A stretch of 38,389 bases of DNA, from contig JBBTUE010000003.1 of the NCBI GenBank assembly GCA_038063915.1, forward strand, positions 1 to 38,389, written 5' to 3'. The notes beneath the pieces are model-generated. The model saw only the letters and a list, made by a program, of their open reading frames with translations. It ran no database searches and was not told where the DNA came from. The number at the start of each line of letters is the position of its first letter. The first letter of the stretch is position 1. The translations under genes were made by a program, and so were the position numbers. The DNA is from Patescibacteria group bacterium (GTDB lineage Bacteria; Patescibacteriota; Minisyncoccia; Phycocordibacterales; UBA9973). Shown here one piece after another: positions 1 through 14,661 of this stretch.

Positions 1-3000
1 GGACAGACATCTGTAGGAGTTGGTGGTGGTGGAACATCTCCTCCTCCGCCAGACCCCCCACCTCCTCCAGAATTTTGCCCCCCACTTTGTTGTACCATTC
101 TCAAGAATTGCTCTTCAGTCACACAAGTACTACCCACACAAAGCTCTTTTGTTTCGATTTTATTACTATGAATAACAGAGGCGTATAGATTTTCTACTGT
201 GTTACCTACATCTGCTAAGAAGCTTTTCATTAAATAACCAACTGAATTATTGTCGGTCGTATCTAAAGATGAGAAACCTTGGATTTTTATATTTAACTCC
301 TGAATAGCTCCAACCACTTGCCACTGGCTTGGAAGCTCGACAGAGTACATACCACTAGGTCCTACAGTCACAAGCTCTGGGTGAGTAACAAGTACTTCTT
401 GGGCAATCACTCCTATCATCTTGTCCCCTGATGCTCTAACATTATATTGTCTTACTCTAAACGACTCAAAATATGATAGAGCCGAGGGTGCATCTGCAAT
501 ATTTTCTTTTAGACGTTCGTCAGATGAACAAGAGACTGTTACTCCTCCGGCTTCTGGATTATAGAGACATTCTCCATCGGAATCAGTAAGTGAGAATATA
601 TTGTTGTCTATCCCCGTATCGGCAACGTCGAGTTTATAGTCCGGTGTTGTATCCCCAATCCCGACGCTTCCCGCATCAAATATTCCTGCATAATTATTTG
701 TTCCCCCTGACGCTGTGGCATAAATACCATAGTTCGTATCGGCAGTACCAGATGCAGTGAAATGTCCAGCATAGTGCACAGTGGCTCCAGTTGTCGTTAA
801 GTTGCCAGTGGCTGAAGCAAGTAGTCCGTAAGAATTGACAGTAAGGCTAGCACTTCCAGCAGTCGATGTGGCATCTGTAAAGCTTCCACCTTTTGAGTTG
901 ATTGTCGCACCTGATACTGAGGTAAGTGTTGGAGTACCACTAACACTTCCGCTTACACCGATATTAGCTATTATAAAATCTGTTCCCGATGTTTCATTTA
1001 TTACCGAATTGCCAGAAACTACTCCAGATATACCTGTTAAGTTACCACGAATACCGAGAGATGCTGCAGCAAGATAAGTTAGATTAGTTGCGCTAGCGGT
1101 ATTGACACTAGGAAATACATTGATAACTGCTCCATCATCAACAGTCGCAGTCGGAGTCACTGTATTATCGATACCCCCAGCAGTGCGTCCTGCCGCAAGA
1201 GTTCCAAAGTTTTGTGTGCCCGTCATAAAGATACCGTACGAGCTTTCTGCCGCATCATCAGCTTGGGTGATATTTATCACACGACTGTGATCATTGCCTG
1301 TAGTACCAGCAAGAGATAAAAGATAGTCCGACGTCGGAGCGACTTGTGAACCAATTTGACCCGTAGTATTTATTTGGAAAAGATCAGTATTGCCGACAGT
1401 GAAGAGCGAGGCGGGGGTCGTGTCGCCAATGCCGACACTCCCTGCTTCAAAAATGGCCGCGTAATTATTTTGTGCTCCACTTGCTGTTGCATAGAGTCCG
1501 ACATTTGTCAGTGCGTTTGAGCCAGCTGATCGAGTAGATGTTGAAGAGAAATATCCGCCGTAAGAAGAAAGTACTCCAGCGGTAGTATCAAAAGTTGCTC
1601 CGGCATTTGAAATATTCGCAACACGGTTTGATGCAGTTTGGCCTGTTGTACTATTTAATACATCAAGACGATATGTCGGTGCCGAAGTAAGTCCTACCCC
1701 CCAACTTGTATTAATTCTTCCAGAGAAATTAGATAGTGAAATTGTTGTTGTCCCAGAACCATGACCTAGATAATCACCAACATATCCTCCAGCAGTTCCT
1801 GCGCTGTCTGTAACATAGAGACTACCATTTACACTCGTAGCATTTAAAACTGTCTGAGTTCCAGCACTGTTGTTTTCAAGAGAAAGATAAGAGCCATATG
1901 CGCCAGTAGAAGACTGAACTGAAGTTTTACCATTAAATATTCCAGCATAGTTATTCGTTCCCCCTGAGGCTGTTGCATAAAGTCCTACATTTGTTGATGT
2001 CCCTGTTTTAGTATTTGAAAGATAGGCACCATATGTAGTCTGAGCACCGGTTCCATTTGCTCCAGAGAGAGAAACATTGAGACCTTTCTGTCCTGTGAGT
2101 GCGCCAGTGCCAGTAGTGACAAGACTAAGTAATGTCCCTGATGTGAGCGTAGAAGATGAAATAGTGTGGAATGTTTCTGTGTCGGATTCTACGGTCCATG
2201 CATTGAGTTCAGTGTCATTAAAAGTGAGCGATTGAGTACCGGTAGGACTTGATATTGTATTCCACACAGATGACCCTCCGCAACCTGTACAAGAAGTGAC
2301 AGTAAGTGCACCTGTGTTGTCTATTTTGGCTTTAGAAACACCTCCCACTTGCCAATCTTGTAATAATTTTGCTCCAGAACCAGTGGCTGTTTCTGTCACA
2401 TTAAGTAGTAATCCGGTATATCCGGCAGTACTACTTTGGTTTACAGTCGGAGTGAGAGAAATCAAATTCTGAGTTCCAGACGAATCATTGTTGTCTGCCA
2501 AGAAGGTACCTATAGTTGTAAGAGCATTGTCAGATGAACTAGTTGTACTTGGGTAAGCAATTTTTAATAGTATATTTCCTCCATTGCCAGTACCTGTACC
2601 TTGGCCACCATTCACTAATATGTTTGTACCTGCCGTATCTGCTACTGCACCAGCTGAACTAGCATTTCCTCCTTGTAGGGTGAGTGTCCCGAAACGACTT
2701 GAATTAACCTGCATTCCATTTGTCGCTCCGTCTGCACCCATTTGACCCACCATTGAACCACCTGAAGAATTGAAAGTTAACAACTGCTCCCCAGAATTAT
2801 TACTGACAAGTAAAGCTCCCTGAGTAGTTCCCGAATCAGCACCGAAGATAGCTATGCCACCTGAATATCCAAGAATCTGTAGCTGTTGTCCTGACATTGC
2901 TTGAATCACTCCTGCCGTCCCACCATTTTGGAAAATTTGTAACCCTGTACCGATTTGAAGTTGTTTTGCGGGTGCTGTCGTTCCGATACCTACATTCCCT

Positions 3001-6000
3001 GCATTAAATATCGCCGCGTAGTTTGTATCCGCACCAGAAGCTGTTGCATATAGACCGATCGCAGTTGAAGTACCAGCTGTGTCTCCAAGTGCTGAGAAGT
3101 ACCCTCCATAGGTGTTCACAGTTCCAGCATCAGTTCGGCCGGTATTGTCAGCAGTATTATATGAACCATATAAATTATAAGTACCAGTTGCAGTATCTGC
3201 TCCTGATTTTGAGACAGCGTTATAAATTCCATATGCAGTCTGCCCTACGGATGCTCCAGCAACTACTGCAGCTGATTGCCAGAAATTCTGAAGACCGTAT
3301 GATGCAGTAAGTGCCCCGGTAGCGGTTTGAGTAGTAAGAAATCGTGCCCCTGGAACAAAGTCACTACTTGAGGTTGCATTTAATCTTAGAGTACCAGAGG
3401 TACTTGTGGCTGTTGAATTGGTAATTACAAGCGCTCCATTTCCAGCGACAGTATTACTAAACAACTGTCCGCTTGTCGGCGCAAATGTAATTGCGCCTGC
3501 ATCAGTAAACGTTGCGATTGCAGTACCGCTATCTTTGATAATAAAATCTCCTGTTGAAGTGAGGTCAATATATGAATCCGTCGCAGAGTTTGCATTTAGT
3601 AGATATGCTCCGGTTGACGTAATGCCAGTAGCAGCTGCGATTGCACCAGAGGAATTGACTTGGAATTGGGAAGTTGCACCGACAGAGAACAATGCATCTG
3701 GAGTTTCATCTCCACCAACGCCAACATTGCCAGCGCCATCTATCCAGAGTCTTTTATTGGTAACTCCATTACTGTTTGTAGCAAAGTATATTGGTACCGC
3801 TGTATTGGTGTACATATATGCCGCACTATCGAGTTTTCCAAAATCGAAATAACTACCGCCACTCGATTGCAATCGGAAAAAAGCAGCGCCACTACTAGTA
3901 GCAGTTATTTTCATTCCAGAATCTGGCCAACCATTACCAGTCACTTTCAACCACCCATCAATTAAAGCAGAGGCAGTAGTGTTTGTGTCGCTTCCTCCTG
4001 TTGCAGTCGCATAGATACCATAATTAACTGGCGTAGTCCCTGTGTGAGTGTTTGAGAAGTATCCAGCATAAGTCGTCTGGCTTGCTGTTCCACTTGCACC
4101 AGAAAGAGAAATGTTTAATCCTTTTTGTCCAGTTAGAGCAGCGGTACCATTAGAAGTTAAAGACAAAATATTTCCTGAAGTAAGTCCATTTCCTGTCATT
4201 AGTCCGATGGTGCCAGTGGTTGCAGAGTTCGCAACGACACTCAAAAGCCCCGTTCCTGTATAAACTCCGGTGTTGGTGATACCAAAATCAACACCTGTTG
4301 TAACAGAAGAATCTATATCAAAGAGCCCGTCTGGGCTTAGATCCCCTATTCCAACTGAGCCATCTTTTTTTATCACCATTTTAGAGCTATATGTCCCTCC
4401 ACCTCCGGATGCTGTTTGGAAATACAGGTCCGCACCGCCACCTCCAACTATATCTGAGACAATTCTCGATCCCAAACTAAATCCTCCACCGCTACCATAC
4501 ACAAATTCCAAAGCTGATGCCCCGGTACCATCTGTGTTTTGTTTAACCAGTATCGAAGAATCGGTAGCTCCTGCTCCTTCAATTGTAGAAATTGGAGTCC
4601 TGCTTACAGTCAACGAAGCAGCAGATGGATATGGTGTCCCGATTGCGACAACTCCTGTACTAGAGACCGCAAGTCCTGGGTAATTTATCTCATACGCTTG
4701 GCTTCCTACTGTTCCACTTTCAGCCACAGTTAAGTGAGTAGTATCGGTAAATGCCGTAATTCTCCTTCGTGTCCCATCAGCAAAGACAAAGTAGTTCGGC
4801 ACCATCGCGGATGTAAATGTCGTACCAACACCAGTGATAGTAGTACCTGATTGTGAAGCAGTACCTGTTGCGTATTGAACTGGTGCAGCCTGGAAAGAAT
4901 GTTCGGGGTTAATGATATCTATGCCGACATTACCGCTTGATGATGCAAGAAGTGTAGCACCAGAGACTTGAAGATTGTATGCTCCGAGGTCAGTTGCGGA
5001 ACCTATTTGTAACTCGCCAGCTCCAGTCAATCTTGCTAACTCATTTCTTGCTACAGAAGATGTGGCTGAGTACCAAGTATAGCGATCACTTGTACTTGCA
5101 GTATTAAATTCAAAGTTATTTGCACTAATACCTAAGCCATAATAATTTACATCTGTTTTACTTGTAGAGGCTCCGTATAATTTTATTTTAGTACCTACAG
5201 TAGCAGCAAAATCAAGTATTCCAAGTGTTCCATTCATTCTGAGGTATTCCGCATCGCCAGTAGCCACGGCTTGGGAAATTCCATAAACAGTAAAACCTGT
5301 AGCGTTAAACGCACTCCCCCCAACTTGTGCTGGACCATTTACCCAATAACTTGCAGTTTGAGATGCAGCGCTTTGGTTTTGAATATATGTAGATCCGGCT
5401 GGAATATCTGTTGTGTACGCAAGAGTCTTTCTTGTTGGACCAGTTGTTTGAGTGATGAAAAGATTTGTGCCATCCCATTCCATTGCCCCAGCTTCAGCAG
5501 CAGTTAAGTTTGTACCACTTGTGAATTTGAGAGGAGCTCCACTTGCCCCGCTTCCACCAGCCGAAATATGAAGGTTGGCTGTTGGTGTACCACTAGCTCC
5601 GATAAATGTTCTATTTGTTACATTTAATCCTGTTGCAGTACCTGGTGCAATTACAATGCCGCCTGTTGTCGAAATAGTTGAATACCCTATTTCCATTGAC
5701 GCAGTTTGATTGGCTGCAGTGATTTTTAATCCATGATTTGCGGTATTATCAACTGACCTGACGATGAGTGCATGGTTAGCATCTTGGTTGGCTGCTCCGA
5801 CATTTACTCTCTCATCAAAATAGGCCGACCAGTTTATTGGAGTTGTGCCCGTGTGGGTATTGCTTACTCGAAGTCCATATGTTGTTTGTGAAGCAGTTCC
5901 GTTTGCTCCCGTAAGAAGTACATTGATACCAGTTTGACCAGTTGAAGATGCTGCAGTGCTGTTGACTTGTATATCGACAACCTTTCCTGAAGATATAGAC

Positions 6001-9000
6001 GAGGATGCAAGATACATACCTGTACCTGTTGTGAGTGAATTAAAATTTCCAGCAAACGCTGACGCAGTTGTTACTTGTGTAGTATTTGCAGAGGTGATCG
6101 ACATTGTTCCGGCTGATTGGATATAGTTTCCAGCAGTTGTTATCGCGGTATCCCACCCAGCTCCAACATTAATCGCTGTCGAAGTAATCGCATCATCGCC
6201 AGTCGCACTTTCGGTCAAGTTCCCAATATTAAGTCCGCGGACAATTCCTGTGATTGCTCCTCCGGAATCATTTTGAGTGACAGTAAATGCATCAATGTCT
6301 AGCACATTCCAAGTTTCAGCATTGTTGCCGGCATCGTTGTCGGTAAATACTGGAGTAAGGTCTATAAGATTTCCTGATGCATCATCTGCCGTGAAAGTAA
6401 GTTGCAGATTGTCGACTCCATCAGTAGCTGAAGTTCCACCAGCTATTGAAAACACATCTACAGTTGGTGCTGCACCTTTAGAAATATTTACTCCATCGCC
6501 TGCATCTAGTACTACATTGAAGTCCCCACCGGAGAGATCAAGGTCGCCATTTGAAACTAAAATATCTCCAGTGGTCAGAGTTAGAGCATCAGTGCCGTCA
6601 GCAGAGCCAGCTATAGTGGTGGCGCCAGTATAGTCAATTGCAAATTTTTGAGAAGCGTTATTTGTCACTGTCAACAGGTTGCCACTTGCAACTGTAAATT
6701 CTGTACTGAATAAGAAATTATTTGCACCTATACCGAGCGATCTAAAGTTTATAGTATCGTTTCCAGAAAAAGAAACATAGGTACTACTGTGGGACGGATT
6801 ATATATACCTGGCACAAATACCCCTAAGTTGAAGATAGGCAAAGTACTACCACTTGCTGTAATAGTGAAGTAGACTGGGTCGTTACGCATCAAGATAGCA
6901 ACTCCACCTGTTTCTGTCCCAGCAACTTTGAAGTAGCTTCGTGTTCCATCACTGACATCTAGTATCCCAGTAGGTGCGGCAGTCCCAATTCCAACTCTGC
7001 CACCCAAAAATGCTGCTGCGTAAGTCGTATCAGCCGTGTTAGCAGTTGTGGCATCGATATAAAGTCCAGTGACAGTATTTGCGAGTGAGCCAGCGTCAAT
7101 AAATGAGATGTGTTGACCATAGAGAGTGTCTGCGTTTGTTGCTTGGTTGTTGGTGATGGCAAGTTTTTGTCCATAGTAAGTAGATGAGGCAGCTGAACCA
7201 GATATTGTAACTGTGTTTAAGAATCCTGATGAACCTGTAGTTGTAATTGCAGAGCTGGTAAGAGCAAGTGGTAATCCTGTTGCCGCATTAGTAGAGATTG
7301 TCACAATATCATTAGTCGTGGCTGGAGAAAGTGTTGTTCCACTTCGTGACCAGTAGCCAATTGTTCCAGTAGAGCCACCAGTTATATTGCCAGTACAAGA
7401 AAGATTTCCGGTTGTGCCGGCATCAGTGATAGTACAAAGAGTATTGGTTCCATCATTAACAACAAGAGAACCTGTGTTGCCGATGGAAATAGTAGGAGCA
7501 GTTTGGTTGAAAGTAATATTACCAGAAGTATTTATTTGAAAAAGATCAGTGTTGCCTACGGTAAATAGCGCAGATGGTGTCGTGTCGCCGATGCCAACAT
7601 TACCAGAAGAATCAATAAGAAGACGCGCAGTATTATTTGTTCCAAGTGCAAGTGGATCAGCCCCATTTGTTAAAATCCCCAATCCATTTATTTGACTCCC
7701 TTGAGCAAGAATATATGCCCATCCTGAATCATCTGATTTGGAGAGATTGGTTAAATAAAAATTACTTGGAAAAGTTGACCCGTGAGTCATAACCTGAACG
7801 AAATTATTGGCCCAATCGCCACTTGCTGAATTGCTAAGTATAAATCCTGAACGAGCTGTTGCTACAGAACTATCAAATTGTGCTAGGTTCGCATAGTCGG
7901 TAGTCGTTGAGTTCTTCACTGATATTGTTTTTGTTTGAGCTGTTCCTGAAATAGCTGAACCAATTTGCAATAAACTCGCTGGCGCTGTTGTCCCAATCCC
8001 TACATTCCCTCCATTAAACACCGCGGTGTAGTTATTCGTTGCTCCAGTTGGTGCAGAAACTGAAAGTCCGTAGGCATTTGTTGCAGTAGAAACAGCAGTT
8101 GCTGGAACCAATATTCCGTATGTATTTGTCAGGGCAACATTGGTTGACTTAATAGCTGGAGAGACGACAAGACCAGCGGCATCTGTAACTGTTTGATTAA
8201 TATTTGTACCGACGAGTGTCATTGCTCCGATTTGGTTAGCAAAAAATGTAGCATAAGTTGTAGGATTTGCACCAGAGAGAGTCACGGTGTGGGCACGAGT
8301 AGTTATTCCTGAGACTCCAGCTGCACTAAATGTTGCAGTAGGGAAAATGTCTAGAATAGAAGCAGGAGTTGCAGTTGCAGCTATTCCTACATTACCTGTA
8401 GCTGAAGCTATATATATTGCATTGTTTTTAAATACTGAGCTGTTTTGAACATCTATGTGATAACTTCCATCACCATCGACTATCCCCATTCTTGCTCCGT
8501 AACCTGTACTTGCATGCAAGAGAGAGATTGTTGGTTCGTGTGATCCTCCAAATTGATTTTTCTGAATTATTAAACCAGTTTGTCCACCAGTTGAGAGAAT
8601 ATATTGCTCGCCAGTTACTTGGAGTGGATAGGCACCACGATCAGTGAATGCATTGATCATGGTTTCGCCAGCAGTATTAACTGCAAGTCCTGGATAATTT
8701 ATTTTGTATGCTTGGCTCCCAACTGTGCCACTTTCAGCAACAGTCAAACTTGTGGTACTACCAAATGCAGTAATTGTCCTTCGTGTCCCATCATCAAATA
8801 CAAAGTAACTTCCTACCATTGCTGAAGTAAATGTTGTCCCTACACCTGTGATAGTAGTCGTAGATTGCGAAGCTGTACCAGTCGCATATTGTACTGGTGC
8901 TGCATGAAGCGGATGAGCTGGATTTTCAATACCTACACCAACAGTGCCATCAGCATAGACACCAAACACAGTACTTCCTGCAGTTGCAGCATTATCCACT

Positions 9001-10415
9001 TGAAGAATTGGCAAACCAGCTGAAGAAGAACCGGAAACTAGATTCAATACTCTACCTGACCCAGCAGGATAATTGTTCATCACAGATGCCCACGCGGTGT
9101 TTGATATTTGAGTCACTGTTAAGATATCAGTATTAGCTGTACCACTTACTACAAAATTCGAATTAGCATTAATTGCTGTACCTCCTGTCAATATATTTAA
9201 TCCACCGCCCGAACCTGCTCCTGTTGTTGCAAGACTGTGATCAATGATAGCAGCATACACACCGTTTGAACCTGGCCCAACTACCTGAAGTTTATAATTA
9301 CCTAAATCAGTAGCTGAACCAATATTTACTTCGTCACTTATTGTCGTTGGGCTAACAGTCGTACCTGCTCGTGACCAGTAACCAATTGCACCTGATGTTG
9401 GAGCAGTAGTGGTGAGAGTTCCGTTTCCTCCTGAAGTATATACGGCGCCGTTGGTTGTGAGAGATGAGAATTGGATAGTGCCAGAAGAAACAAGACCAGT
9501 CGCACCAGAAATAACTCCGGCGTTTGAAATATCGATATTTGTTGTATCGAGAGCAAATGTTCCCGATCCTCCACCAATAGAAACAAGTGCATTTGATGTG
9601 CCAGTATTTATATTCGTGGCAAAATTAGAACTTGTATTAATAGAAGTGGCTGCCCCAGAGACTGTTAAACCTAGGGTGCCTTGAATAAGCCCAGCCCCGG
9701 CATTGACTCCAACTGAAGTCAGAAGCCCAGCGATAGTAAGAGCTCCCGCAGAAGTGATTTTATTTGAACTTGAAAAAAACTGAATATCACCGGTTACACC
9801 AGCATTGAAAGTGAGAGGATTTGATCCAGTAGCTTTTAGCCCAGCAAGTGTTGCGTGACTAAGAACAAGTGCTCCTGTATCAACTACTGGAATTTGATTA
9901 CTTGTGGCACTTAGGCTTGGAGTGTATCCACCAACTCGCTCTGACTCGACAGCCGCAGGTACAGCACCGAGTGTTTTGCGTGGCGTCATTTCTCCATCCC
10001 ATCCTGGAGTACCAGTACCACCAATCTGAACTGACAAATATAAAGTTTGATTGAAATCAACACCAGAAAGTGTAGATACAGATCCAAGCATTACGCTAAA
10101 GAGTCCACTAGTTACTGTTACTTTATTTGCGCCAGTTCTTGTTTCAATCCAAGCACAACTTGTAGTACATGATCCTTGAGTAGTATCACCACCACTTGCA
10201 ACTGTCATCAACTTGAACTCCATATTGTAATCCCCATTCGCTACGGCTACACCAGAAGAGTTAGTAAGCTTACCTTGATAATTTATTTGTTTATTAAATA
10301 CTGCTTGTGCTAGTTGAGAAGATATACCGACAAGTATCAATACAATAAGTAAAACAGTGAAGAAATTCTTAACTCTTGTTGTTTTGCTTTTTAATTGTAA
10401 TTGGAGATACTTCAT
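1..10415 (-). CDS. Giant secreted fibre/adhesin-like protein (>=3471 aa, open at left edge): signal peptide, N-terminal INYQGKL domain, many GxVGIGxTxP repeats, C-terminal peptidase S74-like intramolecular chaperone
   Basis: Manual translation from ATG 10415 gives MKYLQLQLKSKTTRVKNFFTVLLIVLILVGISSQLAQA-VFNKQINYQGKLTNSSG...GLFSVMLG. The same frame at ~530-300 reads SSDERLKENI...GVIAQEV...PELV...GAIQELN, then LCVGSTCVTEEQF and a Gly/Pro tail. Spot-checked segments have no stops, and the ORF track lists nothing in this frame, consistent with an ORF running off the edge. Confidence 0.93.
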   Translation of the reverse strand, partial: MKYLQLQLKSKTTRVKNFFTVLLIVLILVGISSQLAQAVFNKQINYQGKLTNSSGVAVANGDYNMEFKLMTVASGGDTTQGSCTTSCAWIETRTGANKVTVTSGLFSVMLGSVSTLSGVDFNQTLYLSVQIGGTGTPGWDGEMTPRKTLGAVPAAVESERVGGYTPSLSATSNQIPVVDTGALVLSHATLAGLKATGSNPLTFNAGVTGDIQFFSSSNKITSAGALTIAGLLTSVGVNAGAGLIQGTLGLTVSGAATSINTSSNFATNINTGTSNALVSIGGGSGTFALDTTNIDISNAGVISGATGLVSSGTIQFSSLTTNGAVYTSGGNGTLTTTAPTSGAIGYWSRAGTTVSPTTISDEVNIGSATDLGNYKLQVVGPGSNGVYAAIIDHSLATTGAGSGGGLNILTGGTAINANSNFVVSGTANTDILTVTQISNTAWASVMNNYPAGSGRVLNLVSGSSSAGLPILQVDNAATAGSTVFGVYADGTVGVGIENPAHPLHAAPVQYATGTASQSTTTITGVGTTFTSAMVGSYFVFDDGTRRTITAFGSTTSLTVAESGTVGSQAYKINYPGLAVNTAGETMINAFTDRGAYPLQVTGEQYILSTGGQTGLIIQKNQFGGSHEPTISLLHASTGYGARMGIVDGDGSYHIDVQNSSVFKNNAIYIASATGNVGIAATATPASILDIFPTATFSAAGVSGITTRAHTVTLSGANPTTYATFFANQIGAMTLVGTNINQTVTDAAGLVVSPAIKSTNVALTNTYGILVPATAVSTATNAYGLSVSAPTGATNNYTAVFNGGNVGIGTTAPASLLQIGSAISGTAQTKTISVKNSTTTDYANLAQFDSSVATARSGFILSNSASGDWANNFVQVMTHGSTFPSNFYLTNLSKSDDSGWAYILAQGSQINGLGILTNGADPLALGTNNTARLLIDSSGNVGIGDTTPSALFTVGNTDLFQINTSGNITFNQTAPTISIGNTGSLVVNDGTNTLCTITDAGTTGNLSCTGNITGGSTGTIGYWSRSGTTLSPATTNDIVTISTNAATGLPLALTSSAITTTGSSGFLNTVTISGSAASSTYYGQKLAITNNQATNADTLYGQHISFIDAGSLANTVTGLYIDATTANTADTTYAAAFLGGRVGIGTAAPTGILDVSDGTRSYFKVAGTETGGVAILMRNDPVYFTITASGSTLPIFNLGVFVPGIYNPSHSSTYVSFSGNDTINFRSLGIGANNFLFSTEFTVASGNLLTVTNNASQKFAIDYTGATTIAGSADGTDALTLTTGDILVSNGDLDLSGGDFNVVLDAGDGVNISKGAAPTVDVFSIAGGTSATDGVDNLQLTFTADDASGNLIDLTPVFTDNDAGNNAETWNVLDIDAFTVTQNDSGGAITGIVRGLNIGNLTESATGDDAITSTAINVGAGWDTAITTAGNYIQSAGTMSITSANTTQVTTASAFAGNFNSLTTGTGMYLASSSISSGKVVDIQVNSTAASSTGQTGINVLLTGANGTASQTTYGLRVSNTHTGTTPINWSAYFDERVNVGAANQDANHALIVRSVDNTANHGLKITAANQTASMEIGYSTISTTGGIVIAPGTATGLNVTNRTFIGASGTPTANLHISAGGSGASGAPLKFTSGTNLTAAEAGAMEWDGTNLFITQTTGPTRKTLAYTTDIPAGSTYIQNQSAASQTASYWVNGPAQVGGSAFNATGFTVYGISQAVATGDAEYLRMNGTLGILDFAATVGTKIKLYGASTSKTDVNYYGLGISANNFEFNTASTSDRYTWYSATSSVARNELARLTGAGELQIGSATDLGAYNLQVSGATLLASSSGNVGIDIINPEHSFQAAPVQYATGTASQSGTTITGVGTTFTSAMVPNYFVFADGTRRRITAFTDTTHLTVAESGTVGSQAYEINYPGLAVSSTGVVAIGTPYPSAASLTVSRTPISTIEGAGATDSSILVKQNTDGTGASALEFVYGSGGGFSLGSRIVSDIVGGGGADLYFQTASGGGGTYSSKMVIKKDGSVGIGDLSPDGLFDIDSSVTTGVDFGITNTGVYTGTGLLSVVANSATTGTIGLMTGNGLTSGNILSLTSNGTAALTGQKGLNISLSGASGTASQTTYAGYFSNTHTGTTPVNYGIYATATGGSDTNTTASALIDGWLKVTGNGWPDSGMKITATSSGAAFFRLQSSGGSYFDFGKLDSAAYMYTNTAVPIYFATNSNGVTNKRLWIDGAGNVGVGGDETPDALFSVGATSQFQVNSSGAIAAATGITSTGAYLLNANSATDSYIDLTSTGDFIIKDSGTAIATFTDAGAITFAPTSGQLFSNTVAGNGALVITNSTATSTSGTLRLNATSSSDFVPGARFLTTQTATGALTASYGLQNFWQSAAVVAGASVGQTAYGIYNAVSKSGADTATGTYNLYGSYNTADNTGRTDAGTVNTYGGYFSALGDTAGTSTAIGLYATASGADTNYAAIFNAGNVGIGTTAPAKQLQIGTGLQIFQNGGTAGVIQAMSGQQLQILGYSGGIAIFGADSGTTQGALLVSNNSGEQLLTFNSSGGSMVGQMGADGATNGMQVNSSRFGTLTLQGGNASSAGAVADTAGTNILVNGGQGTGTGNGGNILLKIAYPSTTSSSDNALTTIGTFLADNNDSSGTQNLISLTPTVNQSSTAGYTGLLLNVTETATGSGAKLLQDWQVGGVSKAKIDNTGALTVTSCTGCGGSSVWNTISSPTGTQSLTFNDTELNAWTVESDTETFHTISSSTLTSGTLLSLVTTGTGALTGQKGLNVSLSGANGTGAQTTYGAYLSNTKTGTSTNVGLYATASGGTNNYAGIFNGKTSVQSSTGAYGSYLSLENNSAGTQTVLNATSVNGSLYVTDSAGTAGGYVGDYLGHGSGTTTISLSNFSGRINTSWGVGLTSAPTYRLDVLNSTTGQTASNRVANISNAGATFDTTAGVLSSYGGYFSSTSTRSAGSNALTNVGLYATASGAQNNYAAIFEAGSVGIGDTTPASLFTVGNTDLFQINTTGQIGSQVAPTSDYLLSLAGTTGNDHSRVINITQADDAAESSYGIFMTGTQNFGTLAAGRTAGGIDNTVTPTATVDDGAVINVFPSVNTASATNLTYLAAASLGIRGNLTGISGVVSGNSVINETSGTDFIIANIGVSGSVSGTPTLTSVSGATINSKGGSFTDATSTAGSASLTVNSYGLLASATGNLTTTGATVHYAGHFTASGTADTNYGIYATASGGTNNYAGIFDAGSVGIGDTTPDYKLDVADTGIDNNIFSLTDSDGECLYNPEAGGVTVSCSSDERLKENIADAPSALSYFESFRVRQYNVRASGDKMIGVIAQEVLVTHPELVTVGPSGMYSVELPSQWQVVGAIQELNIKIQGFSSLDTTDNNSVGYLMKSFLADVGNTVENLYASVIHSNKIETKELCVGSTCVTEEQFLRMVQQSGGQNSGGGGGSGGGGDVPPPPTPTDVC
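1366..1437. repeat. 72-bp internal repeat, second copy at 7528-7599
   Basis: Both copies encode VGIGDTTP(A/S)(S/A)LFTVGNTDLFQINT. Confidence 0.85.
4669..4889. repeat. 221-bp internal duplication in the giant gene, copy 1
   Basis: AAPVQYATGTASQSGTTITGVGTTFTSAMV...DGTRRRITAF...LTVAESGTVGSQAYEINYPGLA; same length as 8683-8903. Confidence 0.9.
8683..8903. repeat. 221-bp internal duplication in the giant gene, copy 2
   Basis: AAPVQYATGTASQSTTTITGVGTTFTSAMV...DGTRRTITAF...LTVAESGTVGSQAYKINYPGLA. Confidence 0.9.
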
Positions 10416-10420
10416 GTTTA

Positions 10421-10786
10421 TTAATTTCTAGTTTCCATTACTTCAACCTCAGAAGATAGTTCTGGGTTTACTACTCCTTTCTCTACAATATTTTTGTTTT
10501 TTAAATAAAAGGTAACAGAAAAAACTCCAACGAATATAATTAGAGTTGCTAGGAAAATATTACGAGTACGACGACGAGACAAAAAGCTTCCAACTGCAAA
10601 CTTGTCTTGTCTTATCTTTTGCTTAAAAAGATAGTTTTGTACCTCCTCTTCGGTTGTAACCCAGCTCCTACCGACTTTCTTACCTTTAATGTCTCCTTGG
10701 CGTATTAAATAACCTAAGTAGTCTTGTGTATAGCCACTTATTTTTGCAGCCTGGTTAAGATTTATGATTTTTTTTAGGGATTCCAT
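10421..10786 (-). CDS. Excisionase-like (HTH_17/MerR-type) helix-turn-helix protein with one C-terminal transmembrane helix
   Basis: INLNQAAKISGYTQDYLGYLIRQGDIKGKKVGRSWVTT, then a basic patch RRRTR and hydrophobic IFLATLIIFVGVFSVTFYL. Start moved to ATG 10786 (MESLKK); the ORF-track start 10840 is also possible. Confidence 0.8.
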   Translation of the reverse strand: MESLKKIINLNQAAKISGYTQDYLGYLIRQGDIKGKKVGRSWVTTEEEVQNYLFKQKIRQDKFAVGSFLSRRRTRNIFLATLIIFVGVFSVTFYLKNKNIVEKGVVNPELSSEVEVMETRN

Positions 10787-10918
10787 TTTGTTAATATATA
10801 TAAGGCTATATCGGATAGACGAGATAAAAATTTTACCCATCTCGGACTACCGATATCTCTTTAAAACTATATATATTATAGTCAAAAAGACCTTTTTAAT
10901 CCAATAAAAAAATCTTAG

Positions 10919-10927
10919 TTATGCACA
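10919..10927 (+). promoter_or_regulatory. DnaA-box-like site TTATGCACA upstream of the HTH gene promoter (-10 TATAAT at 10875-10880, minus strand)
   Basis: One mismatch to TTATCCACA; intergenic. Confidence 0.45.
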
Positions 10928-10946
10928 GGTCTTTAAATATTGTTTT

Positions 10947-12227
10947 TTAGAGCTCAGTTTTCTTTTTTAGCCATATAATACAAGCTAAAAGTACTACTAG
11001 TAAAAACGAAGCGGCTAGAGCTTCTGTATTCGATCCCCCTCTAGGAGTTTGAGTCTGTGTACTAGGCTCTACTCTTAGTATTCCTTCACTTAGGAGTACA
11101 GTGTGATCTTTGTTGAAACCGTAAATACGAACTTCATAATCGCCTTCCTGGCCAAGTGGTGGGATACTGGTTTGATAAGTTTTGTTTTGGCTATTATAGA
11201 TAAAAAGATAAGCCCTAGCGTCTGTTTTAGACGGTGTGGTTATCTCTAGCCATAAATCGCTAAATCCTTCGAATGTCTTTGATGTGCTTTGAGCACTAAT
11301 TGTATCAGTGCTAGTGACCTCCCTGATGTTGCCTATCGGAGAGATGACCTGACCCTTTTGTATTACAAGGAAGTGTGGAAGGAAATCCTTGCTTTTAATC
11401 GGAGGTGGGGGTAACACCACTGGAGTATTTTCTTGAAGATTGAAAAAAACTTTTACCCCAACCCCAGAAGAAAACTCTCCTGAGGTTTCTCGGGTAAAGA
11501 GAGTGTAATAATATGTTTGACCTATTACAACATTTTTATCAAGAAAATACTCAGAGCCCCCTTCATAAACCAAGGTACCAGTAAATGGACTAGACCGGAA
11601 ACGGTCACCACTCTTCATAATACGAATGTAATCAAAATCCTGATCAATTGGATTACTCCACCGCAGTGTGATGCCTTGCTGTCCTACTAAAGCGCGAACA
11701 TTTGATGGATTTGGTATATGGTATTCCTCAGGAAAAGAAATGGTGGTAAAGTTACTACTATAACTTGCGCCAATTGAATTAGTCCTTCCTTCTACTACAA
11801 TTAAAAAAAAGTATTGAGTCCCTGGTTTTAGCCCGGTTAGGACAGCACTGTGATCTGTCACAAAAACTATACTACGCATGCTACCATTTTTGACTTCGCT
11901 GGTTTCTCCCCATGTGACTGTGGCAAAAGTTGGTGATTGTGTTTTGAAATCAATAACAGCCTTATCGACTCCAAGGGTAATAACTACATCATGTATAAAT
12001 TGAGTATAACCTCCCCCGCCGTGAGGAGGGGGTGGTGGAGGAATAACCGCACAATCATTGGGACAACTAAGTACTGTTTCACCATTACTCGGCTCACAAA
12101 TACTATTATTATTGCAACCTTCAACAATAAGATTCACAGGGATGGTGGAGCTAGCTGCTAAAGCAATGTTCGTACTACTAAGTAAGAATAATATTAGGAA
12201 TAAAATTATTCGGTAGAAAGATTTCAT
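10947..12227 (-). CDS. Secreted, C-terminally membrane-anchored protein with a Cys-rich motif and two fibronectin type III-like domains
   Basis: Signal peptide; CNNNSICEPSNGETVLSCPNDC; HSAVLTGLKPGTQYFF; ITLRWSNP...YYYTLFT; C-terminal hydrophobic helix followed by KKK. Confidence 0.8.
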   Translation of the reverse strand: MKSFYRIILFLILFLLSSTNIALAASSTIPVNLIVEGCNNNSICEPSNGETVLSCPNDCAVIPPPPPPHGGGGYTQFIHDVVITLGVDKAVIDFKTQSPTFATVTWGETSEVKNGSMRSIVFVTDHSAVLTGLKPGTQYFFLIVVEGRTNSIGASYSSNFTTISFPEEYHIPNPSNVRALVGQQGITLRWSNPIDQDFDYIRIMKSGDRFRSSPFTGTLVYEGGSEYFLDKNVVIGQTYYYTLFTRETSGEFSSGVGVKVFFNLQENTPVVLPPPPIKSKDFLPHFLVIQKGQVISPIGNIREVTSTDTISAQSTSKTFEGFSDLWLEITTPSKTDARAYLFIYNSQNKTYQTSIPPLGQEGDYEVRIYGFNKDHTVLLSEGILRVEPSTQTQTPRGGSNTEALAASFLLVVLLACIIWLKKKTEL

Positions 12228-12234
12228 TATTTTA

Positions 12235-13014
12235 TTATAGCGTAACCGCCGTCACAGTAACAGTTGCAGTATAGTTCCCAGATGTTTGAATATGACTTGA
12301 ACCTGACTCAGCACGGAATCGCACAGTCACAGGTGTACCACTAGGATGATTACTAGATGCACTTCCGGCAATACTAGCAGGTGTAGTTGATAGCCCGTCC
12401 CAACATTTCCCACTCGTCTCTGATGAGCCAGTATTACAAGCGGACGTTCCATTATCCTTAAATCGAGCTATAGTATCAGCACCTTCTGGAGAAAAACCAA
12501 AAGACGAGTTGGCGGCTGCATTTGTAAAAGTATAGTCAGGATTCCCTCCAGCTGGTACATAATTTGCAAAAGAATCTAAAGAAGATTTAAGAGCTGGAGT
12601 GGTAGAAGTTTGAATAGTCATTGAGTACCCGGCGGTACTGTCAGTAGTTACTGTCCAAGTCGTTGTACCTTCGCTTCCTTCACCTGATATACCACCAATA
12701 GAAGATAGGGCTAGATCAGAAGGAGATGTGAGCGCAATATAAGCTCCTTGCATTTGCCAGTACCCAGCATGCATATAGTAGGTAGAGCTATTCGAATCCC
12801 CTGTTGCAATTTCACCCCCTGTGTCATTAAGATTATAGCTTGTTGATGTTGACGGAGCTCCTCCGACATTTACACTATCCGACTGGATCTTATAAGTAGT
12901 ACTTTGCATAACATACGCTCTACTTATATAAGATGGAAAAAATAACCCTAAAATTAGAATAGAAAACGCAAAACAGGCATATATGTCTTTAAAAAAAGAA
13001 TCAAGAAATTTCAT
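12235..13014 (-). CDS. Secreted WxL-like/pilin-like subunit with an N-terminal extension; paralog of 14020-14661
   Basis: Signal peptide; TTWTVTTDSTAGYSMT; terminal strand GNYTATVTVTAVTL. Family assignment is from motif recall only. Confidence 0.6.
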   Translation of the reverse strand: MKFLDSFFKDIYACFAFSILILGLFFPSYISRAYVMQSTTYKIQSDSVNVGGAPSTSTSYNLNDTGGEIATGDSNSSTYYMHAGYWQMQGAYIALTSPSDLALSSIGGISGEGSEGTTTWTVTTDSTAGYSMTIQTSTTPALKSSLDSFANYVPAGGNPDYTFTNAAANSSFGFSPEGADTIARFKDNGTSACNTGSSETSGKCWDGLSTTPASIAGSASSNHPSGTPVTVRFRAESGSSHIQTSGNYTATVTVTAVTL

Positions 13015-13024
13015 TTTAATTAAA

Positions 13025-14002
13025 CTACTTTCTCCTTAGTTCGAAACGAGTTGCAATATAGTAACCAATAGTAACGATAAGTATAATACCAACAAGAACC
13101 ATGAGTAATATCTTCCAAGGTATAATCCAGAAGGCTACTTTAGACTCTGCATATTCAGTTCCGTACCCTTTATAAAGAGAGAGATTCGCCGTATAGCGGC
13201 CAAGGCCAAAACCTTGTTTCCAAGACACTTCGTGGTATCGAATAGAATCAGGAAGTGCAAAGTATGCATTGACAGGCAATACTTCTATAGATTTACCGAA
13301 TATGTTCTTAATAGTTATTGTTCCATAAGGTACGAGGTGTACGTTACCTGTGTTTTTATATGCAATTTCAAACCCCTCAGGGCGTTTTTCATAGAATGCT
13401 TTGGATGGACCAATAACTTTAAAATCTGAAAGTGATCCTTCTTCTTTACCTTTACCATTAACTCTAACCAACAAAATAGACCCTATGCGAGATACAAGCC
13501 TTGTTTTGCCTTCTACTTCAGTAGGCTTGCTATTGGGTCCAATCTCCGGATTGTTTGTCACAATAAGGGCTCCATAATAACCTCTAGGCTCTACGTTGGT
13601 TGGCACAGATATATCTACTGGTATTGTAATACGCTCACCAAACTTTAATGAGAATGTGCTAATCTCAGGCTTTATAAAATCTTTAATAGAATAAGGCCCT
13701 CTTTCATTGCCTAGAAGTTTTATAGGTTGTTGTGAGTTATCACTACCAACCAAGTCCTCTGCACTTAAGATAAAGTCAACAGTTTTATTGATGCGGTTAG
13801 TTATACTGATTTGCTTTGTTACATGCTCTCCAGGGTTAAGAAATATTTCAGTTTTTCCTGGTTCTACTGCAAAGTCATTAAAATCCTGTGTCGTAATAAA
13901 AGTCCGATCTACAGCAGCAATGGCTGACTGACCAAAAAATAAGATTGCAGATAAAACCACAACAGAAAAAATTATTTTTTTATATTTGTTTATTATATTC
14001 AC
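13025..14002 (-). CDS. DUF916/WxL-interacting-like protein with a C-terminal TM helix
   Basis: Signal peptide; VEPGKTEIFLNPGE; IPVDISVPTNVEPRGYYGAL; YKNTGNVHLVPYGTITIKN; GRYTANLSLYKG; FWIIPW followed by a TM helix. Confidence 0.7.
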   Translation of the reverse strand: MNIINKYKKIIFSVVVLSAILFFGQSAIAAVDRTFITTQDFNDFAVEPGKTEIFLNPGEHVTKQISITNRINKTVDFILSAEDLVGSDNSQQPIKLLGNERGPYSIKDFIKPEISTFSLKFGERITIPVDISVPTNVEPRGYYGALIVTNNPEIGPNSKPTEVEGKTRLVSRIGSILLVRVNGKGKEEGSLSDFKVIGPSKAFYEKRPEGFEIAYKNTGNVHLVPYGTITIKNIFGKSIEVLPVNAYFALPDSIRYHEVSWKQGFGLGRYTANLSLYKGYGTEYAESKVAFWIIPWKILLMVLVGIILIVTIGYYIATRFELRRK

Positions 14003-14019
14003 AAAAAGGGGTTAATGAA

Positions 14020-14661
14020 TTAGATAGTGACGGCTGTTGCTGTAACTGTAGCTTGATATGATCCTGAGGCAGCATATATACCATCCTGTTCAGCAGCACC
14101 ACAAAAAGTAGTATCTATTCCAGTAGTTGGAGTTGTCGTCGCTCTAGTAGAAATTGCTACCAAGGCGACTTTAGTATTACGATATTTTAAAGTTGCGCTA
14201 GGTGTTCCAGCGGAACCACAATCTGAACCTGTCCCCCATGTACCAGTAGGAGTATCTGTTCCAAAGGCTGAGTAACCAAATTCTTTATTGCCAGAAGGAA
14301 CATCCCATGTTTCAGGAGTCTCTGCAACTGCTGTAGTATAGTCTGCAAAAGAATTACCTCCACTTACAAGAGAGGGAGAAGCTTGTGCATTGAAAGAAAG
14401 AGAATAGCCAGTAGCATTGTTGGTCTTCACATTCCAAGTAGAGCTACATATTGCACTATTTACAGAAACAGTAATAGCTGGTGACAAAGCACAATCAGCC
14501 GGTGAAGTAATAGTGATACCAGAAGTGACTGTTAAAGTAACTAATATATCATCTGTTATAGCTTCTACTATAGGAGCTTCGAACGCCATATAAAACAACT
14601 GGAGAGATAGGAGTGAGGCAATTGATAATGCGATAACTTTTTTAAATATGCTCTTTTTCAT
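14020..14661 (-). CDS. Secreted WxL-like/pilin-like subunit (single domain; candidate major subunit)
   Basis: Signal peptide; STWNVKTNNATGYSLS; terminal strand GSYQATVTATAVTI; clear similarity to 12235-13014. Confidence 0.6.
   Translation of the reverse strand: MKKSIFKKVIALSIASLLSLQLFYMAFEAPIVEAITDDILVTLTVTSGITITSPADCALSPAITVSVNSAICSSTWNVKTNNATGYSLSFNAQASPSLVSGGNSFADYTTAVAETPETWDVPSGNKEFGYSAFGTDTPTGTWGTGSDCGSAGTPSATLKYRNTKVALVAISTRATTTPTTGIDTTFCGAAEQDGIYAASGSYQATVTATAVTI

What the first reader, a model, noticed from the sequence alone, without database searches (positions are those of the whole stretch)
1..10415. Unannotated >=3471-aa signal-peptide fibre with an autocleaving chaperone and no obvious anchor
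The ORF track misses it entirely. It has a cleavable signal (AQA-V) and a phage-tailspike-type S74 motif (SSDERLK; predicted cleavage Ser at 522-524, residue ~3298), but no TM helix or lipobox in the parts I translated. S74 domains are established as trimerisation chaperones of phage spikes and of Bdellovibrio adhesive fibres. How this protein is held on the cell is open; the N-terminal INYQGKL...GLFSVMLG domain is a candidate docking module. The sequence also continues past the chaperone (LCVGSTCVTEEQF, Gly linker, Pro tail), and that extension would be released on cleavage.
Basis: partly seen in the sequence, partly recalled or inferred. Interest (0 to 1): 0.65.

Follow-up and report, generated by a model that had tools for sequence, protein, structure and literature searches.

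The report
Giant self-cleaving surface fibre, CPR bacterium
An ultra-small (Patescibacteria) bacterium encodes a real surface-fibre protein of about 3,500 residues, built like a phage tail fibre with a self-cleaving folding domain. It is probably a fibre for attaching to a host cell, and its most likely membrane anchor is a small DNA-binding membrane protein encoded just upstream.

Summary
Window 3-10415 (minus strand) is one uninterrupted ORF of 3471 codons, cut only by the contig end. About 55 residues are missing, judging by the orthologue.

- **Signal peptide:** Sec-type, with AQA|V. The AxA site is conserved in 25 relatives.
- **Other anchors:** no other TM segment, no lipobox, no LPXTG.
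- **S74 chaperone:** genuine, with an invariant S3298-D-x-R-x-K3303. The family profile matches solved chaperone structures from phage fibres and MyRF.
- **N-terminal domain:** residues 44-149 fold as an Ig-like beta-sandwich, the most conserved part of the protein. It heads more than 8000 protein clusters, mostly Patescibacteria where named, and was not found in viral contigs.
- **Shaft:** about 3100 residues, mosaic.

**New here:** the gene belongs to a conserved locus. This runs: pilus-like operon, FN3 protein, small HTH-TM protein, fibre. The HTH-TM gene abuts the fibre gene in 40 of 77 species. In other relatives the same HTH-TM is fused to S74 fibres. Its promoter carries twin palindromic boxes.

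**Best reading:** a Bdellovibrio-MAT-like trimeric adhesive fibre, roughly 0.24 µm long, docked by its N-domain to the HTH-TM protein or to the pilus system. This is a new variant of a known kind. No experiment or read-level check was possible.

The parts
3..10415 (-). Fibre gene, 3471 codons, 3' end cut by the contig end (about 55 codons missing by comparison with orthologue P0004)
10302..10415 (-). Sec-type signal peptide, aa 1-38 (basic n-region, h-region FFTVLLIVLILVGI, c-region SSQLAQA, predicted cut AQA|V)
   Evidence: Sequence. This is the only TM-grade segment. The AxA site is conserved in 25 relatives. AF2 models a helix at aa 12-30.
9966..10301 (-). Conserved N-terminal Ig-like beta-sandwich domain, aa 39-150 (INYQGKL ... 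GEMTPRK); candidate cell-proximal docking module
   Evidence: AF2 gives 8 strands at aa 44-149, with block pLDDT mostly 70-94. The domain matches 8082 cluster representatives, nearly always at the protein N-terminus. It has no Pfam model and no specific PDB fold match.
525..9965 (-). Mosaic Thr/Gly/Ser/Ala/Asn-rich shaft, aa 151-3297. It has 9 G-x-V-G-[IV]-G..P capping-loop-like motifs, three of the protein's five paired Cys loops, and a duplicated ~93-aa module (aa 496-590 and 1835-1927).
369..524 (-). Peptidase_S74 core, aa 3298-3349. Catalytic Ser3298 is codon 522-524 and Lys3303 is codon 507-509, within SDERLK. The predicted self-cleavage is just before Ser3298.
78..368 (-). Rest of the chaperone domain, aa 3350-3446: two long helices, then the conserved motif K-I-E-T-K-E-L-C-VGST-C-V-T-EEQF (Cys3426/Cys3431 hairpin plus helix)
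3..77 (-). Gly-rich linker and start of the Pro-rich tail, aa 3447-3471, truncated. The orthologue continues with a Cys-x22-Cys loop and an acidic Pro/Thr tail.
10421..10786 (-). Small partner gene (121 aa from ATG 10786): cytoplasmic excisionase/MerR-like HTH, basic stretch, one TM helix, and a 25-aa external tail ending in the strand-like ELSSEVEVME. A double stop TAATAA lies 5 nt before the fibre ATG.
10808..10857 (-). Twin palindromic boxes (core TCG-N6-CGA) 31 bp apart, at -67 and -36 from the HTH start codon; putative operator
10947..14661 (-). Upstream conserved genes of the same locus: an FN3-like secreted protein (10947-12227) and a three-gene pilus-like cluster (12235-14661)

Best explanation
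The gene encodes a secreted, self-maturing, probably homotrimeric surface fibre. It is a Patescibacteria counterpart of the mosaic adhesive trimeric (MAT) fibres of Bdellovibrio and of phage tail fibres.

**Shown by sequence**
- A Sec signal peptide with a conserved AxA site.
- A conserved Ig-like N-terminal domain.
- A mosaic shaft of about 3100 residues.
- A genuine C-terminal S74 intramolecular chaperone with the Ser3298/Lys3303 dyad.
- A conserved Cys-loop/helix and a Pro-rich tail after the chaperone.

**Inferred from established knowledge of S74 domains (endosialidase K1F, T5 pb1, Bd3182)**
- After export, three C-terminal chaperone domains associate and nucleate folding of the trimeric shaft.
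- Each chain then cuts itself just before Ser3298.
- This releases a C-terminal fragment of about 230 residues (chaperone, Cys-loop and tail) and exposes the distal tip.
- The mature chain is aa 39-3297. At the rise per residue I derive from the published Bd3182 model (about 550 Å; I took about 760 mature residues), the fibre would be about 0.24 µm long. That is about the diameter I assume for such ultra-small cells.

**Inferred from comparative genomics**
- The three N-terminal Ig-like domains stay at the cell and dock non-covalently on a partner encoded in the same conserved locus.
- The most likely partner is the small HTH-TM protein translated just upstream. Its short external tail ends in a conserved amphipathic strand. 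The same HTH-TM module is covalently fused to the N-terminus of related S74 fibres.
- The distal end binds a host or partner cell surface.
- The HTH probably also binds the twin palindromic boxes in its own promoter, which would regulate the pair.
For: - **Intact ORF:**
- **S74:** Pfam match above cut-off. S, D, R and K of SDxRxK, plus AQ and P, are invariant in 20 relatives. The family profile hits solved chaperone domains: 8jov 5e-19, 6f45 4e-16, MyRF 7dc3 1e-13, T5 8hqz 5e-7, phi29 3gud 1e-6. The region matches phage tail-fibre genes at 30-38%.
- **Signal peptide:** it is the only hydrophobic segment, and the AxA site is conserved.
- **N-domain:** a beta-sandwich. It is present in 8082 cluster representatives, nearly always N-terminal, at 48-88% identity among the best 150. 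It occurs in 446 species genomes, nearly all labelled Patescibacteria among the 80 listed. No relative was found in IMG/VR viral contigs.
- **Mosaicism:** the positional orthologue P0004 shares only the first ~230 aa (61%) and the last ~227 aa (79%).
- **Conserved locus:** the order is pilus-like genes, FN3/CarboxypepD_reg protein, HTH-TM, fibre. trmD also flanks it in L002.
- **HTH-TM adjacency:** the HTH-TM ORF abuts the fibre start on the same strand in 40 of 77 loci, and never lies on the opposite strand. All 8 strong HTH hits among 61 relatives lie upstream of the N-domain gene on the same strand, 6 of them within about 300 nt.
- **Fusions:** the HTH hits lie inside large ORFs that also carry S74 in G045, G051 and G054. 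Fused forms include P0065, P0095, P0096, P0102 and P0109.
- **External tail motif:** conserved in the small HTH-TM proteins.
- **Twin boxes:** present in 21 of 25 promoters, against a background of 0.03 per 160 nt.
- **MAT architecture for comparison:** PMC10769870.
- **Published co-localisation:** a 'tail fibre-like protein' is reported to co-localise with CPR pam pilus operons (PMC13278184).
Against:
- Trimerisation, cleavage, surface location and host binding are all inferred.
- The monomer AF2 model of the S74 region is poor (pLDDT 66). Its top fold hit, the K1F chaperone 3gw6, is not significant (E 0.03, TM 0.30).
- No direct evidence links the N-domain physically to the HTH-TM tail. 29 of 77 loci show no recognisable HTH gene within 2.5 kb upstream.
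- The match between N-domain subtype and HTH class may reflect shared ancestry only.
- Homology of the N-domain to the Bdellovibrio MAT N-domain could not be tested.
- The gene is incomplete at the contig end. An internal near-duplicate module could hide an assembly error.
Confidence: 0.65

Rival explanations
1. Same fibre, different anchor. The N-terminal Ig-like domain is joined to the neighbouring chaperone-type (Pam-like) pilus system by strand complementation. The fibre would then be a pilus-associated tip or base adhesin, and the HTH-TM protein would be only a regulator.
For: - Strong orthologues of the pilus-chaperone-like gene (window 13025-14002) occur in 12 of 61 relatives. In 10 of these it lies about 2.3-4.3 kb upstream of the N-domain gene on the same strand.
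- The synteny is the same in L002-L004.
- Troman et al. report that a tail fibre-like protein co-localises with pam operons.
- The N-domain has an Ig-like fold. Its most conserved motif is the first strand of the mature protein.
Against: - Profile comparison finds no similarity between the N-domain and the three neighbouring secreted proteins.
- A trimer would present three N-domains, which is hard to fit onto a single-file pilus.
- The HTH-TM module, not a pilin, is what is found covalently fused to related fibres.
- In at least one orthologous locus (L038) a terminator-like hairpin appears to separate the pilus genes from the HTH/fibre promoter. This is my reading of the sequence.
Confidence: 0.2
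2. The fibre is not retained on the producer. It is shed after maturation as a free or matrix-forming fibre, or the Pro-rich C-terminal tail is the transient cell-proximal end and S74 cleavage releases the fibre.
For: - The mature chain has no covalent or TM anchor.
- Pro/Thr-rich acidic tails end most relatives, whether or not they carry S74. This suggests the tail has a role of its own.
Against: - The N-domain is far more conserved than the rest of the protein, and it is genetically coupled to membrane proteins. That is what one expects of a docking module.
- In phage and Bdellovibrio S74 fibres the N-terminus is the attached end (PMC10769870).
Confidence: 0.08
3. It is a prophage or tailocin tail-fibre gene rather than a cellular surface protein.
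For: S74 domains and GNVGIG..P motifs are typical of phage tail fibres. The C-terminal region matches phage fibre genes at 30-38%.
Against: - The flanks are housekeeping genes: trmD, rpsP, a KH protein and RNase R here, and rpoB/rpoC in the orthologue.
- The chromosomal synteny is fixed across species.
- The protein has a Sec signal peptide.
- PHROGs gives no hit.
- No relative of the N-domain was found in 2.9 million viral contigs.
Confidence: 0.03
4. The long ORF is partly an assembly artefact, with repeats collapsed or mis-joined in a metagenome-assembled genome.
For: - The gene ends at a contig end.
- A second giant fibre gene on the same contig spans a 100-N scaffold gap.
- The protein holds two copies of a ~93-aa module that match strongly (domain E 2.7e-38).
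Against: - 10.4 kb stays in frame.
- The positional orthologue has a similar length (3721 aa), lies on an 840-kb contig and has matching ends.
- More than 100 relatives of 2-6 kaa come from independent assemblies.
Confidence: 0.04

Closest known systems
Bdellovibrio bacteriovorus MAT (mosaic adhesive trimeric) fibres, S74 subgroup, e.g. Bd3182 (Caulton et al. 2024, PMC10769870)
   Same: - The domain order matches: signal peptide, conserved beta-rich N-terminal domain of about 110-130 aa with no PDB homologue, long mosaic shaft with V-G-x-G..P..L capping-loop-like motifs, then a C-terminal S74 with SDxxxK.
- Sister proteins share the N-domain but carry non-S74 tips.
- The surface partner of the N-domain is unknown in both cases.
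   Different: - This protein is about four times longer (3259 mature residues, against roughly 760 for Bd3182 by my estimate).
- The organism is a Patescibacteria bacterium.
- It has an extra Cys-loop and a Gly/Pro tail after the chaperone.
- It is genetically coupled to an HTH-TM protein and a pilus-like operon.
- Homology of the two N-domains was not tested.
- The loop motif is one residue longer than the published consensus.
Phage tail fibres and spikes with a C-terminal intramolecular chaperone (K1F endosialidase 3gw6, T5 pb1 8hqz, S16 long tail fibre 6f45, phi29 gp12 3gud)
   Same: S74 core with a Ser-Lys dyad, and a chaperone placed after a fibrous region. Profile-level sequence similarity.
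   Different: It is a cellular, Sec-exported protein in a conserved chromosomal locus. It has no virion-attachment domain and there are no phage genes nearby.
HTH-TM-fused giant S74 fibres of Patescibacteria
   Same: Shaft modules, S74 and lineage are shared. The HTH-TM module is homologous to the small protein encoded upstream here.
   Different: Here the HTH-TM is a separate 121-aa protein (double stop, different frame). The fibre has its own cleavable signal peptide and an Ig-like N-domain that the fused forms lack.
'Tail fibre-like protein' co-localised with pam pilus operons of CPR bacteria (Troman et al. 2026 preprint, PMC13278184)
   Same: A tail-fibre-like gene sits next to a chaperone-type pilus operon in CPR genomes.
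   Different: The paper only mentions the co-localisation. I did not verify that its protein, or the pam genes, are homologous to those here.
Membrane-tethered one-component regulators (ToxR, CadC, TcpP) and MyRF
   Same: The partner protein has a cytoplasmic DNA-binding domain, one TM helix and an external part, with a conserved operator-like site in its own promoter. MyRF also combines a DNA-binding domain with an S74 domain.
   Different: The HTH is of the excisionase/MerR-like type. The external part is only about 25 residues. The S74 domain is on a different polypeptide and outside the cell, so it cannot release the HTH as it does in MyRF.

Membership tests
Peptidase S74 / C-terminal intramolecular chaperone domain (PF13884) | Match to the family HMM above the curated cut-off | tested here: met
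   29.6 bits against 22; 37.2 bits in the genome search
Peptidase S74 / C-terminal intramolecular chaperone domain (PF13884) | Catalytic Ser-Lys dyad in S-D-x-x-x-K | tested here: met
   S3298 and K3303 in SDERLK; S, D, R and K are invariant in 20 aligned relatives
Peptidase S74 / C-terminal intramolecular chaperone domain (PF13884) | Similarity to solved chaperone domains | tested here: met
   Profile against PDB: 8jov 5e-19, 6f45 4e-16, 7dc3 1e-13, 8hqz 5e-7, 3gud 1e-6. Fold search of a monomer model puts 3gw6 first but without significance.
Peptidase S74 / C-terminal intramolecular chaperone domain (PF13884) | Trimerisation-dependent autocleavage | not testable with these tools
   Needs expression of the wild type against S3298A/K3303A
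MAT-type bacterial adhesive fibre (Bdellovibrio) | Signal peptide followed at once by a conserved beta-rich N-terminal domain of about 130 aa | tested here: met
   Searches show an equivalent layout. Homology to the Bdellovibrio domain itself was not tested (no Bdellovibrio sequence to hand).
MAT-type bacterial adhesive fibre (Bdellovibrio) | Mosaic shaft with interchangeable tips (S74 or non-S74) among family members | tested here: met
   The orthologue shares only its two ends. Segments match other proteins at shifted positions. About 9 of 65 giant N-domain proteins carry S74, and the others have different C-termini.
MAT-type bacterial adhesive fibre (Bdellovibrio) | Trimeric fibre exposed on the cell surface and binding another cell | not testable with these tools
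   Inference only
Phage or prophage tail fibre | Encoded within a phage structural module | tested here: not met
   Housekeeping flanks and conserved chromosomal synteny; no PHROG hit
Phage or prophage tail fibre | N-terminal virion-attachment domain shared with phages | tested here: not met
   Sec signal peptide. No relative of the N-domain was found in IMG/VR, where 120 pattern matches gave no confirmed relative.
HTH-TM-fused giant fibres of Patescibacteria | Cytoplasmic HTH and TM helix in the same polypeptide as the fibre | tested here: not met
   Separate gene, stops TAA TAA, 5-nt gap, different frame. A homologous HTH-TM is present as the adjacent gene.
Covalently or membrane-anchored Gram-positive-type adhesin / lipoprotein / trimeric autotransporter | LPxTG sorting signal, lipobox, C-terminal TM or beta-barrel anchor | tested here: not met
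   None found in the 3471 residues or in the complete orthologue tail. Pfam shows no autotransporter domain.
Pam pilus locus component (Troman et al. 2026) | Gene adjacent to a chaperone-type pilus operon | tested here: met
   against 36. Homology of the neighbouring genes to PamA-D was not tested by me.

The most novel reading that the evidence does not exclude
The small HTH-TM protein and the fibre together form a split version of the one-polypeptide 'adhesin plus membrane-tethered transcription factor' found in related Patescibacteria.
- The three Ig-like N-domains of each fibre would clamp the strand-like external tails of three HTH-TM molecules.
- Fibre assembly, load or loss, for example on contact with a host cell, would then change how the cytoplasmic HTH domains occupy the twin palindromic boxes. 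These boxes sit 31 bp apart in the pair's own promoter.
- A micrometre-scale surface fibre would in that case act both as an attachment organ and as the sensor of a direct contact-to-transcription switch.
Probability: 0.15. Interest if true: 0.8.

Novelty: new variant of a known kind. Interest (0 to 1): 0.5.

Why it matters
How ultra-small Patescibacteria find and hold their host cells is largely unknown. Type IV pili and, in a 2026 preprint, Pam pili are the systems I found described.

This gene shows that a phage-type, self-chaperoned trimeric fibre design, so far characterised in a bacterium only for the predator Bdellovibrio, is widespread in Patescibacteria.
- S74 domains occur in 32 of 61 relatives.
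- The N-terminal module occurs in more than 8000 protein clusters.
- The fibre sits in a fixed locus with a pilus system and a membrane-tethered DNA-binding protein.

This gives concrete, testable candidates for the fibre's anchor and its regulation. The mosaic shaft and tip are natural candidates for host-range determinants.

Tried and rejected
- **NCBIfam and PHROGs on the whole protein:** no hits.
- **Single-sequence PDB search of the last 266 aa:** only low-complexity Gly/Pro linker hits. A family profile was needed.
- **N-domain profile against PDB sequences:** nothing.
- **Foldseek of the N-domain model:** only generic Ig-like hits, none at E<1e-3.
- **Foldseek of the monomer S74 model:** 3gw6 ranks first but is not significant.
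- **hhalign of the N-domain against the three neighbouring secreted proteins:** no similarity. I therefore dropped the idea that the N-domain is a recognisable pilin paralogue.
- **The search for related loci with the 25-sequence alignment:** A 5-sequence alignment worked.
- **Viral contigs:** no relative of the N-domain.
- **Own-genome search:** no second N-domain gene. The two paralogous fibres lack it.
- **Simple promoter/terminator scan of 10300-11100:** uninformative.
- **Literature:** no paper joins Patescibacteria with 'intramolecular chaperone'. Other searches gave nothing specific.
- **Homology to the Bdellovibrio MAT N-domain:** could not be tested. No Bdellovibrio sequence or AlphaFold DB library was available.
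Full report
**The ORF**

With open ends allowed, the window holds one minus-strand ORF at 3..10415. It has an ATG start, 3471 codons and no stop. The window is the first 38,389 bases of contig C3 of a 648-kb, six-contig genome estimated 96% complete. The gene is therefore cut by a contig end, not by a mutation.

Ser3298 is codon 522-524, as stated. The protein is 57% Thr/Gly/Ser/Ala/Asn and is acidic (D+E 202, K+R 108). Ten of its eleven cysteines form five close pairs: 83/87, 994/1007, 2709/2712, 3283/3296 and 3426/3431. That pattern suits an extracellular protein.

Record titles of the closest relatives place the genome in Patescibacteria (Paceibacterota/Minisyncoccia).

**The S74 chaperone**

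- Pfam reports only Peptidase_S74 (PF13884), at aa 3298-3349, above the gathering score. The six-frame genome search finds the same match.
- I aligned this region with 19 related C-termini. S3298, D3299, R3301 and K3303 of SDERLK are invariant, as are the AQ of IAQE and a Pro.
- The alignment profile matches solved intramolecular chaperone domains: a phage tail fibre (8jov, 5e-19), the phage long tail fibre distal subunit 6f45 (4e-16), MyRF (7dc3, 1e-13), T5 pb1 (8hqz, 5e-7) and phi29 gp12 (3gud, 1e-6).
- The last 400 residues match annotated phage tail-fibre genes at 30-38% identity.
- A monomer AlphaFold model of aa 3266-3446 is only moderately confident (pLDDT 66). The K1F chaperone 3gw6 is the top fold hit but not significant. 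That is expected when one chain of an intertwined trimer is modelled alone.

**What follows the chaperone core**

The model shows two long helices, then a hairpin and a helix. These correspond to KIETKELC-VGST-CVTEEQFLRMV.

- This Cys-loop/helix motif recurs in 8 of the 20 aligned sequences, including the S74 paralogue on contig C2.
- The positional orthologue P0004 is 79% identical over the last 227 aligned residues. It continues after ...TDVC with about 55 more residues: a Cys-x22-Cys loop and an acidic Pro/Thr tail. This shows what is missing here.
- Pro/Thr-rich acidic tails end most giant relatives, with or without S74.

**The N-terminus**

- The only TM-grade hydrophobic stretch is aa 12-41. 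There is no lipobox and no LPxTG.
- In 25 aligned relatives, an AxA-type site sits 5-7 residues before the invariant I-N-[YF]-Q-G-[KR]-L. This is the signature of signal peptidase I cleavage, not of a retained anchor.
- AlphaFold with this alignment gives a helix at aa 12-30 and an eight-strand beta-sandwich at aa 44-149, with block pLDDT mostly 70-94.
- The domain has no Pfam model, no PDB sequence relative, and only generic Ig-like fold matches.

**Distribution of the N-domain**

- An exhaustive HMMER search with aa 1-200 against 1.84 billion cluster representatives finds 8082 proteins at E<=1e-3 and 331 at E<=1e-30.
- The match nearly always starts within the first 30 residues. The proteins range from 170 to 5744 aa, and identity is 48-88% among the best 150.
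- The domain occurs in 446 species genomes. Among the 80 listed, nearly all titles name Patescibacteria groups, including Nomura-, Kaiser-, Campbell-, Falkow- and Saccharibacteria-labelled bins.
- It occurs in 17 of 61 close relatives, once per genome.
- No relative was found in IMG/VR viral contigs.

**The shaft**

The shaft is mosaic.

- The positional orthologue shares only the first ~230 residues (61%) and the last ~227 (79%).
- Other giants share internal blocks at shifted positions.
- Nine G-x-V-G-[IV]-G..P motifs resemble the capping loops described for MAT fibres and MyRF. They are one residue longer than the published consensus.
- A ~93-aa module is duplicated at aa 496-590 and aa 1835-1927.

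**Genomic context**

The flanks are housekeeping genes: trmD, rpsP, a KH protein and RNase R. In the orthologue, rpoB/rpoC follow the fibre, so this is not a prophage.

The locus order is conserved:
1. trmD (in L002);
2. three pilus-like genes;
3. an FN3/CarboxypepD_reg-like protein;
4. a small protein of 118-130 aa;
5. the fibre.

*The small protein.* It has an excisionase/MerR-like HTH, a basic stretch, one TM helix and a ~25-residue external tail. The likely start is ATG 10786, giving 121 aa. It ends with TAA TAA, 5 nt before the fibre ATG and in another frame. It is 46-53% identical in the orthologous loci.

*Adjacency.*
- Among 61 relatives, all eight strong matches to it lie upstream of the N-domain gene on the same strand, six of them within about 300 nt.
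- Among 77 loci from different species, an HTH homologue abuts the fibre start in 40. It lies within 2.5 kb in 48, and never on the opposite strand.

*Fusions.* Weaker matches of the same HTH fall inside large ORFs that also contain S74 (G045, G051, G054). Several giant relatives are HTH-TM-fibre fusions, some with S74: P0065, P0095, P0096, P0102 and P0109. This fusion/fission pattern argues for a functional, and probably physical, link.

*External tail.* The tails of the small proteins end in a conserved alternating motif, such as LSSEVEVME or LSSEVEIIN, that looks like an amphipathic strand.

*Pilus genes.* Strong orthologues of the pilus-chaperone-like gene occur in 12 of 61 relatives. Ten of them lie about 2.3-4.3 kb upstream of the N-domain gene. 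A 2026 preprint notes that a 'tail fibre-like protein' consistently co-localises with pam pilus operons in CPR genomes, without characterising it (PMC13278184).

**Regulation**

Upstream of the HTH gene there are two copies of a palindromic box with core TCG-N6-CGA. They sit at -67 and -36 from the start codon, 31 bp apart.

- The core occurs in 21 of 25 orthologous upstream regions. In 10 of these it occurs twice, always 31 bp apart. The background is 0.03 per 160 nt.
- A stricter version of the box hits only this promoter and one other site in the whole genome.
- A DnaA-box-like TGTGNATAA is present in 19 of 25 of these regions.

The HTH-TM protein is the obvious candidate to bind the palindromes. 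That is an inference.

**Comparison with what is known**

The layout is that of the Bdellovibrio MAT fibres: signal peptide, conserved beta-rich N-domain with no PDB homologue, mosaic trimeric shaft, S74 with SDxxxK, and sister proteins with other tips (PMC10769870). From the ~550 Å reported for the Bd3182 model I estimate about 0.72 Å per residue, taking ~760 mature residues. On that basis the 3259-residue mature chain would give a fibre of roughly 0.24 µm.

The differences from MAT fibres are:
- the size;
- the lineage;
- the extension after the chaperone;
- the coupling to an HTH-TM protein and a pilus-like operon.

I found no paper describing S74 fibres of Patescibacteria. Earlier notes from this scan describe many related HTH-fused and signal-peptide fibres. 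I treated these as leads and tested here the adjacency, the fusions and the promoter palindrome.

**Verdict**

The protein is best filed as a new variant of a known kind: S74-matured bacterial adhesive fibres.

The step from 'conserved N-domain' to 'docks on the HTH-TM tail' is the weakest link, at perhaps 35-40%. The pilus system is the main alternative. Nothing here is experimental, and the reads could not be examined.

Noticed in passing
window 38278-38389 (minus strand) and beyond the 100-N scaffold gap, G000:C3:38490-49548: This is the tail end of a second giant fibre gene (about 3700 aa, P0051). It has a different N-terminus and no S74 motif, and it ends in tandem PPTCVEPQILDTTTNTCADPTP repeats that probably caused the scaffold gap. 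It shares two blocks (65% and 74% identity) with the fibre studied here.
   Followed up: partly
G000:C2:49296-53053 (+): This is a third, shorter S74 fibre paralogue. It is split into two overlapping ORFs (707 and 705 aa), so it carries a frameshift or a sequencing error near C2:51000-51400. Its S74 match is the strongest in the genome (69.6 bits), and it has the same Cys-loop/helix and Pro-rich tail.
   Followed up: partly
window 10808-10857 (minus strand): Twin palindromic boxes (TCG-N6-CGA core) lie 31 bp apart, between a TATAAT-like element and the HTH start codon. They are conserved in 21 of 25 orthologous promoters and are nearly unique in the genome. They are a likely operator for the HTH-TM protein.
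   Followed up: partly
window 10918-10927 (minus strand); also C3:14719, C3:36725, C3:49621: A DnaA-box-like TGTGNATAAC lies upstream of the HTH/fibre promoter in 19 of 25 species, often doubled as TGTGGATAACTAGTGGATA. The genome has 18 copies, against about 8 expected by my estimate. Several lie just upstream of other surface-structure genes on this contig, including the second giant fibre.
   Followed up: partly
window 8646-8930 and 4635-4913 (minus strand; aa 496-590 and 1835-1927): A duplicated ~93-aa module (..AAPVQYATGTASQS.TTITGVGTTFTSAMV..F.F.DGT.R.ITAF..) is embedded in the shaft. It was found in only two other proteins of the set. It may be a small globular insert.
   Followed up: partly
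relatives P0065, P0096, P0102, P0109, P0095; G054:C4 (6630-aa ORF): Related giant fibres carry one or two N-terminal MerR/excisionase-like HTH domains and a TM helix fused to the fibre. They end in a different C-terminal 'F[DN]W[WL][IM][IV]' beta domain placed after the S74.
   Followed up: partly
loci L012, L014, L015, L028, L046, L052 (bins labelled Saccharibacteria): In these loci the gene upstream of the N-domain fibre is a short HTH protein (69-114 aa) with no detectable TM helix. The membrane tether is therefore not universal.
   Followed up: no
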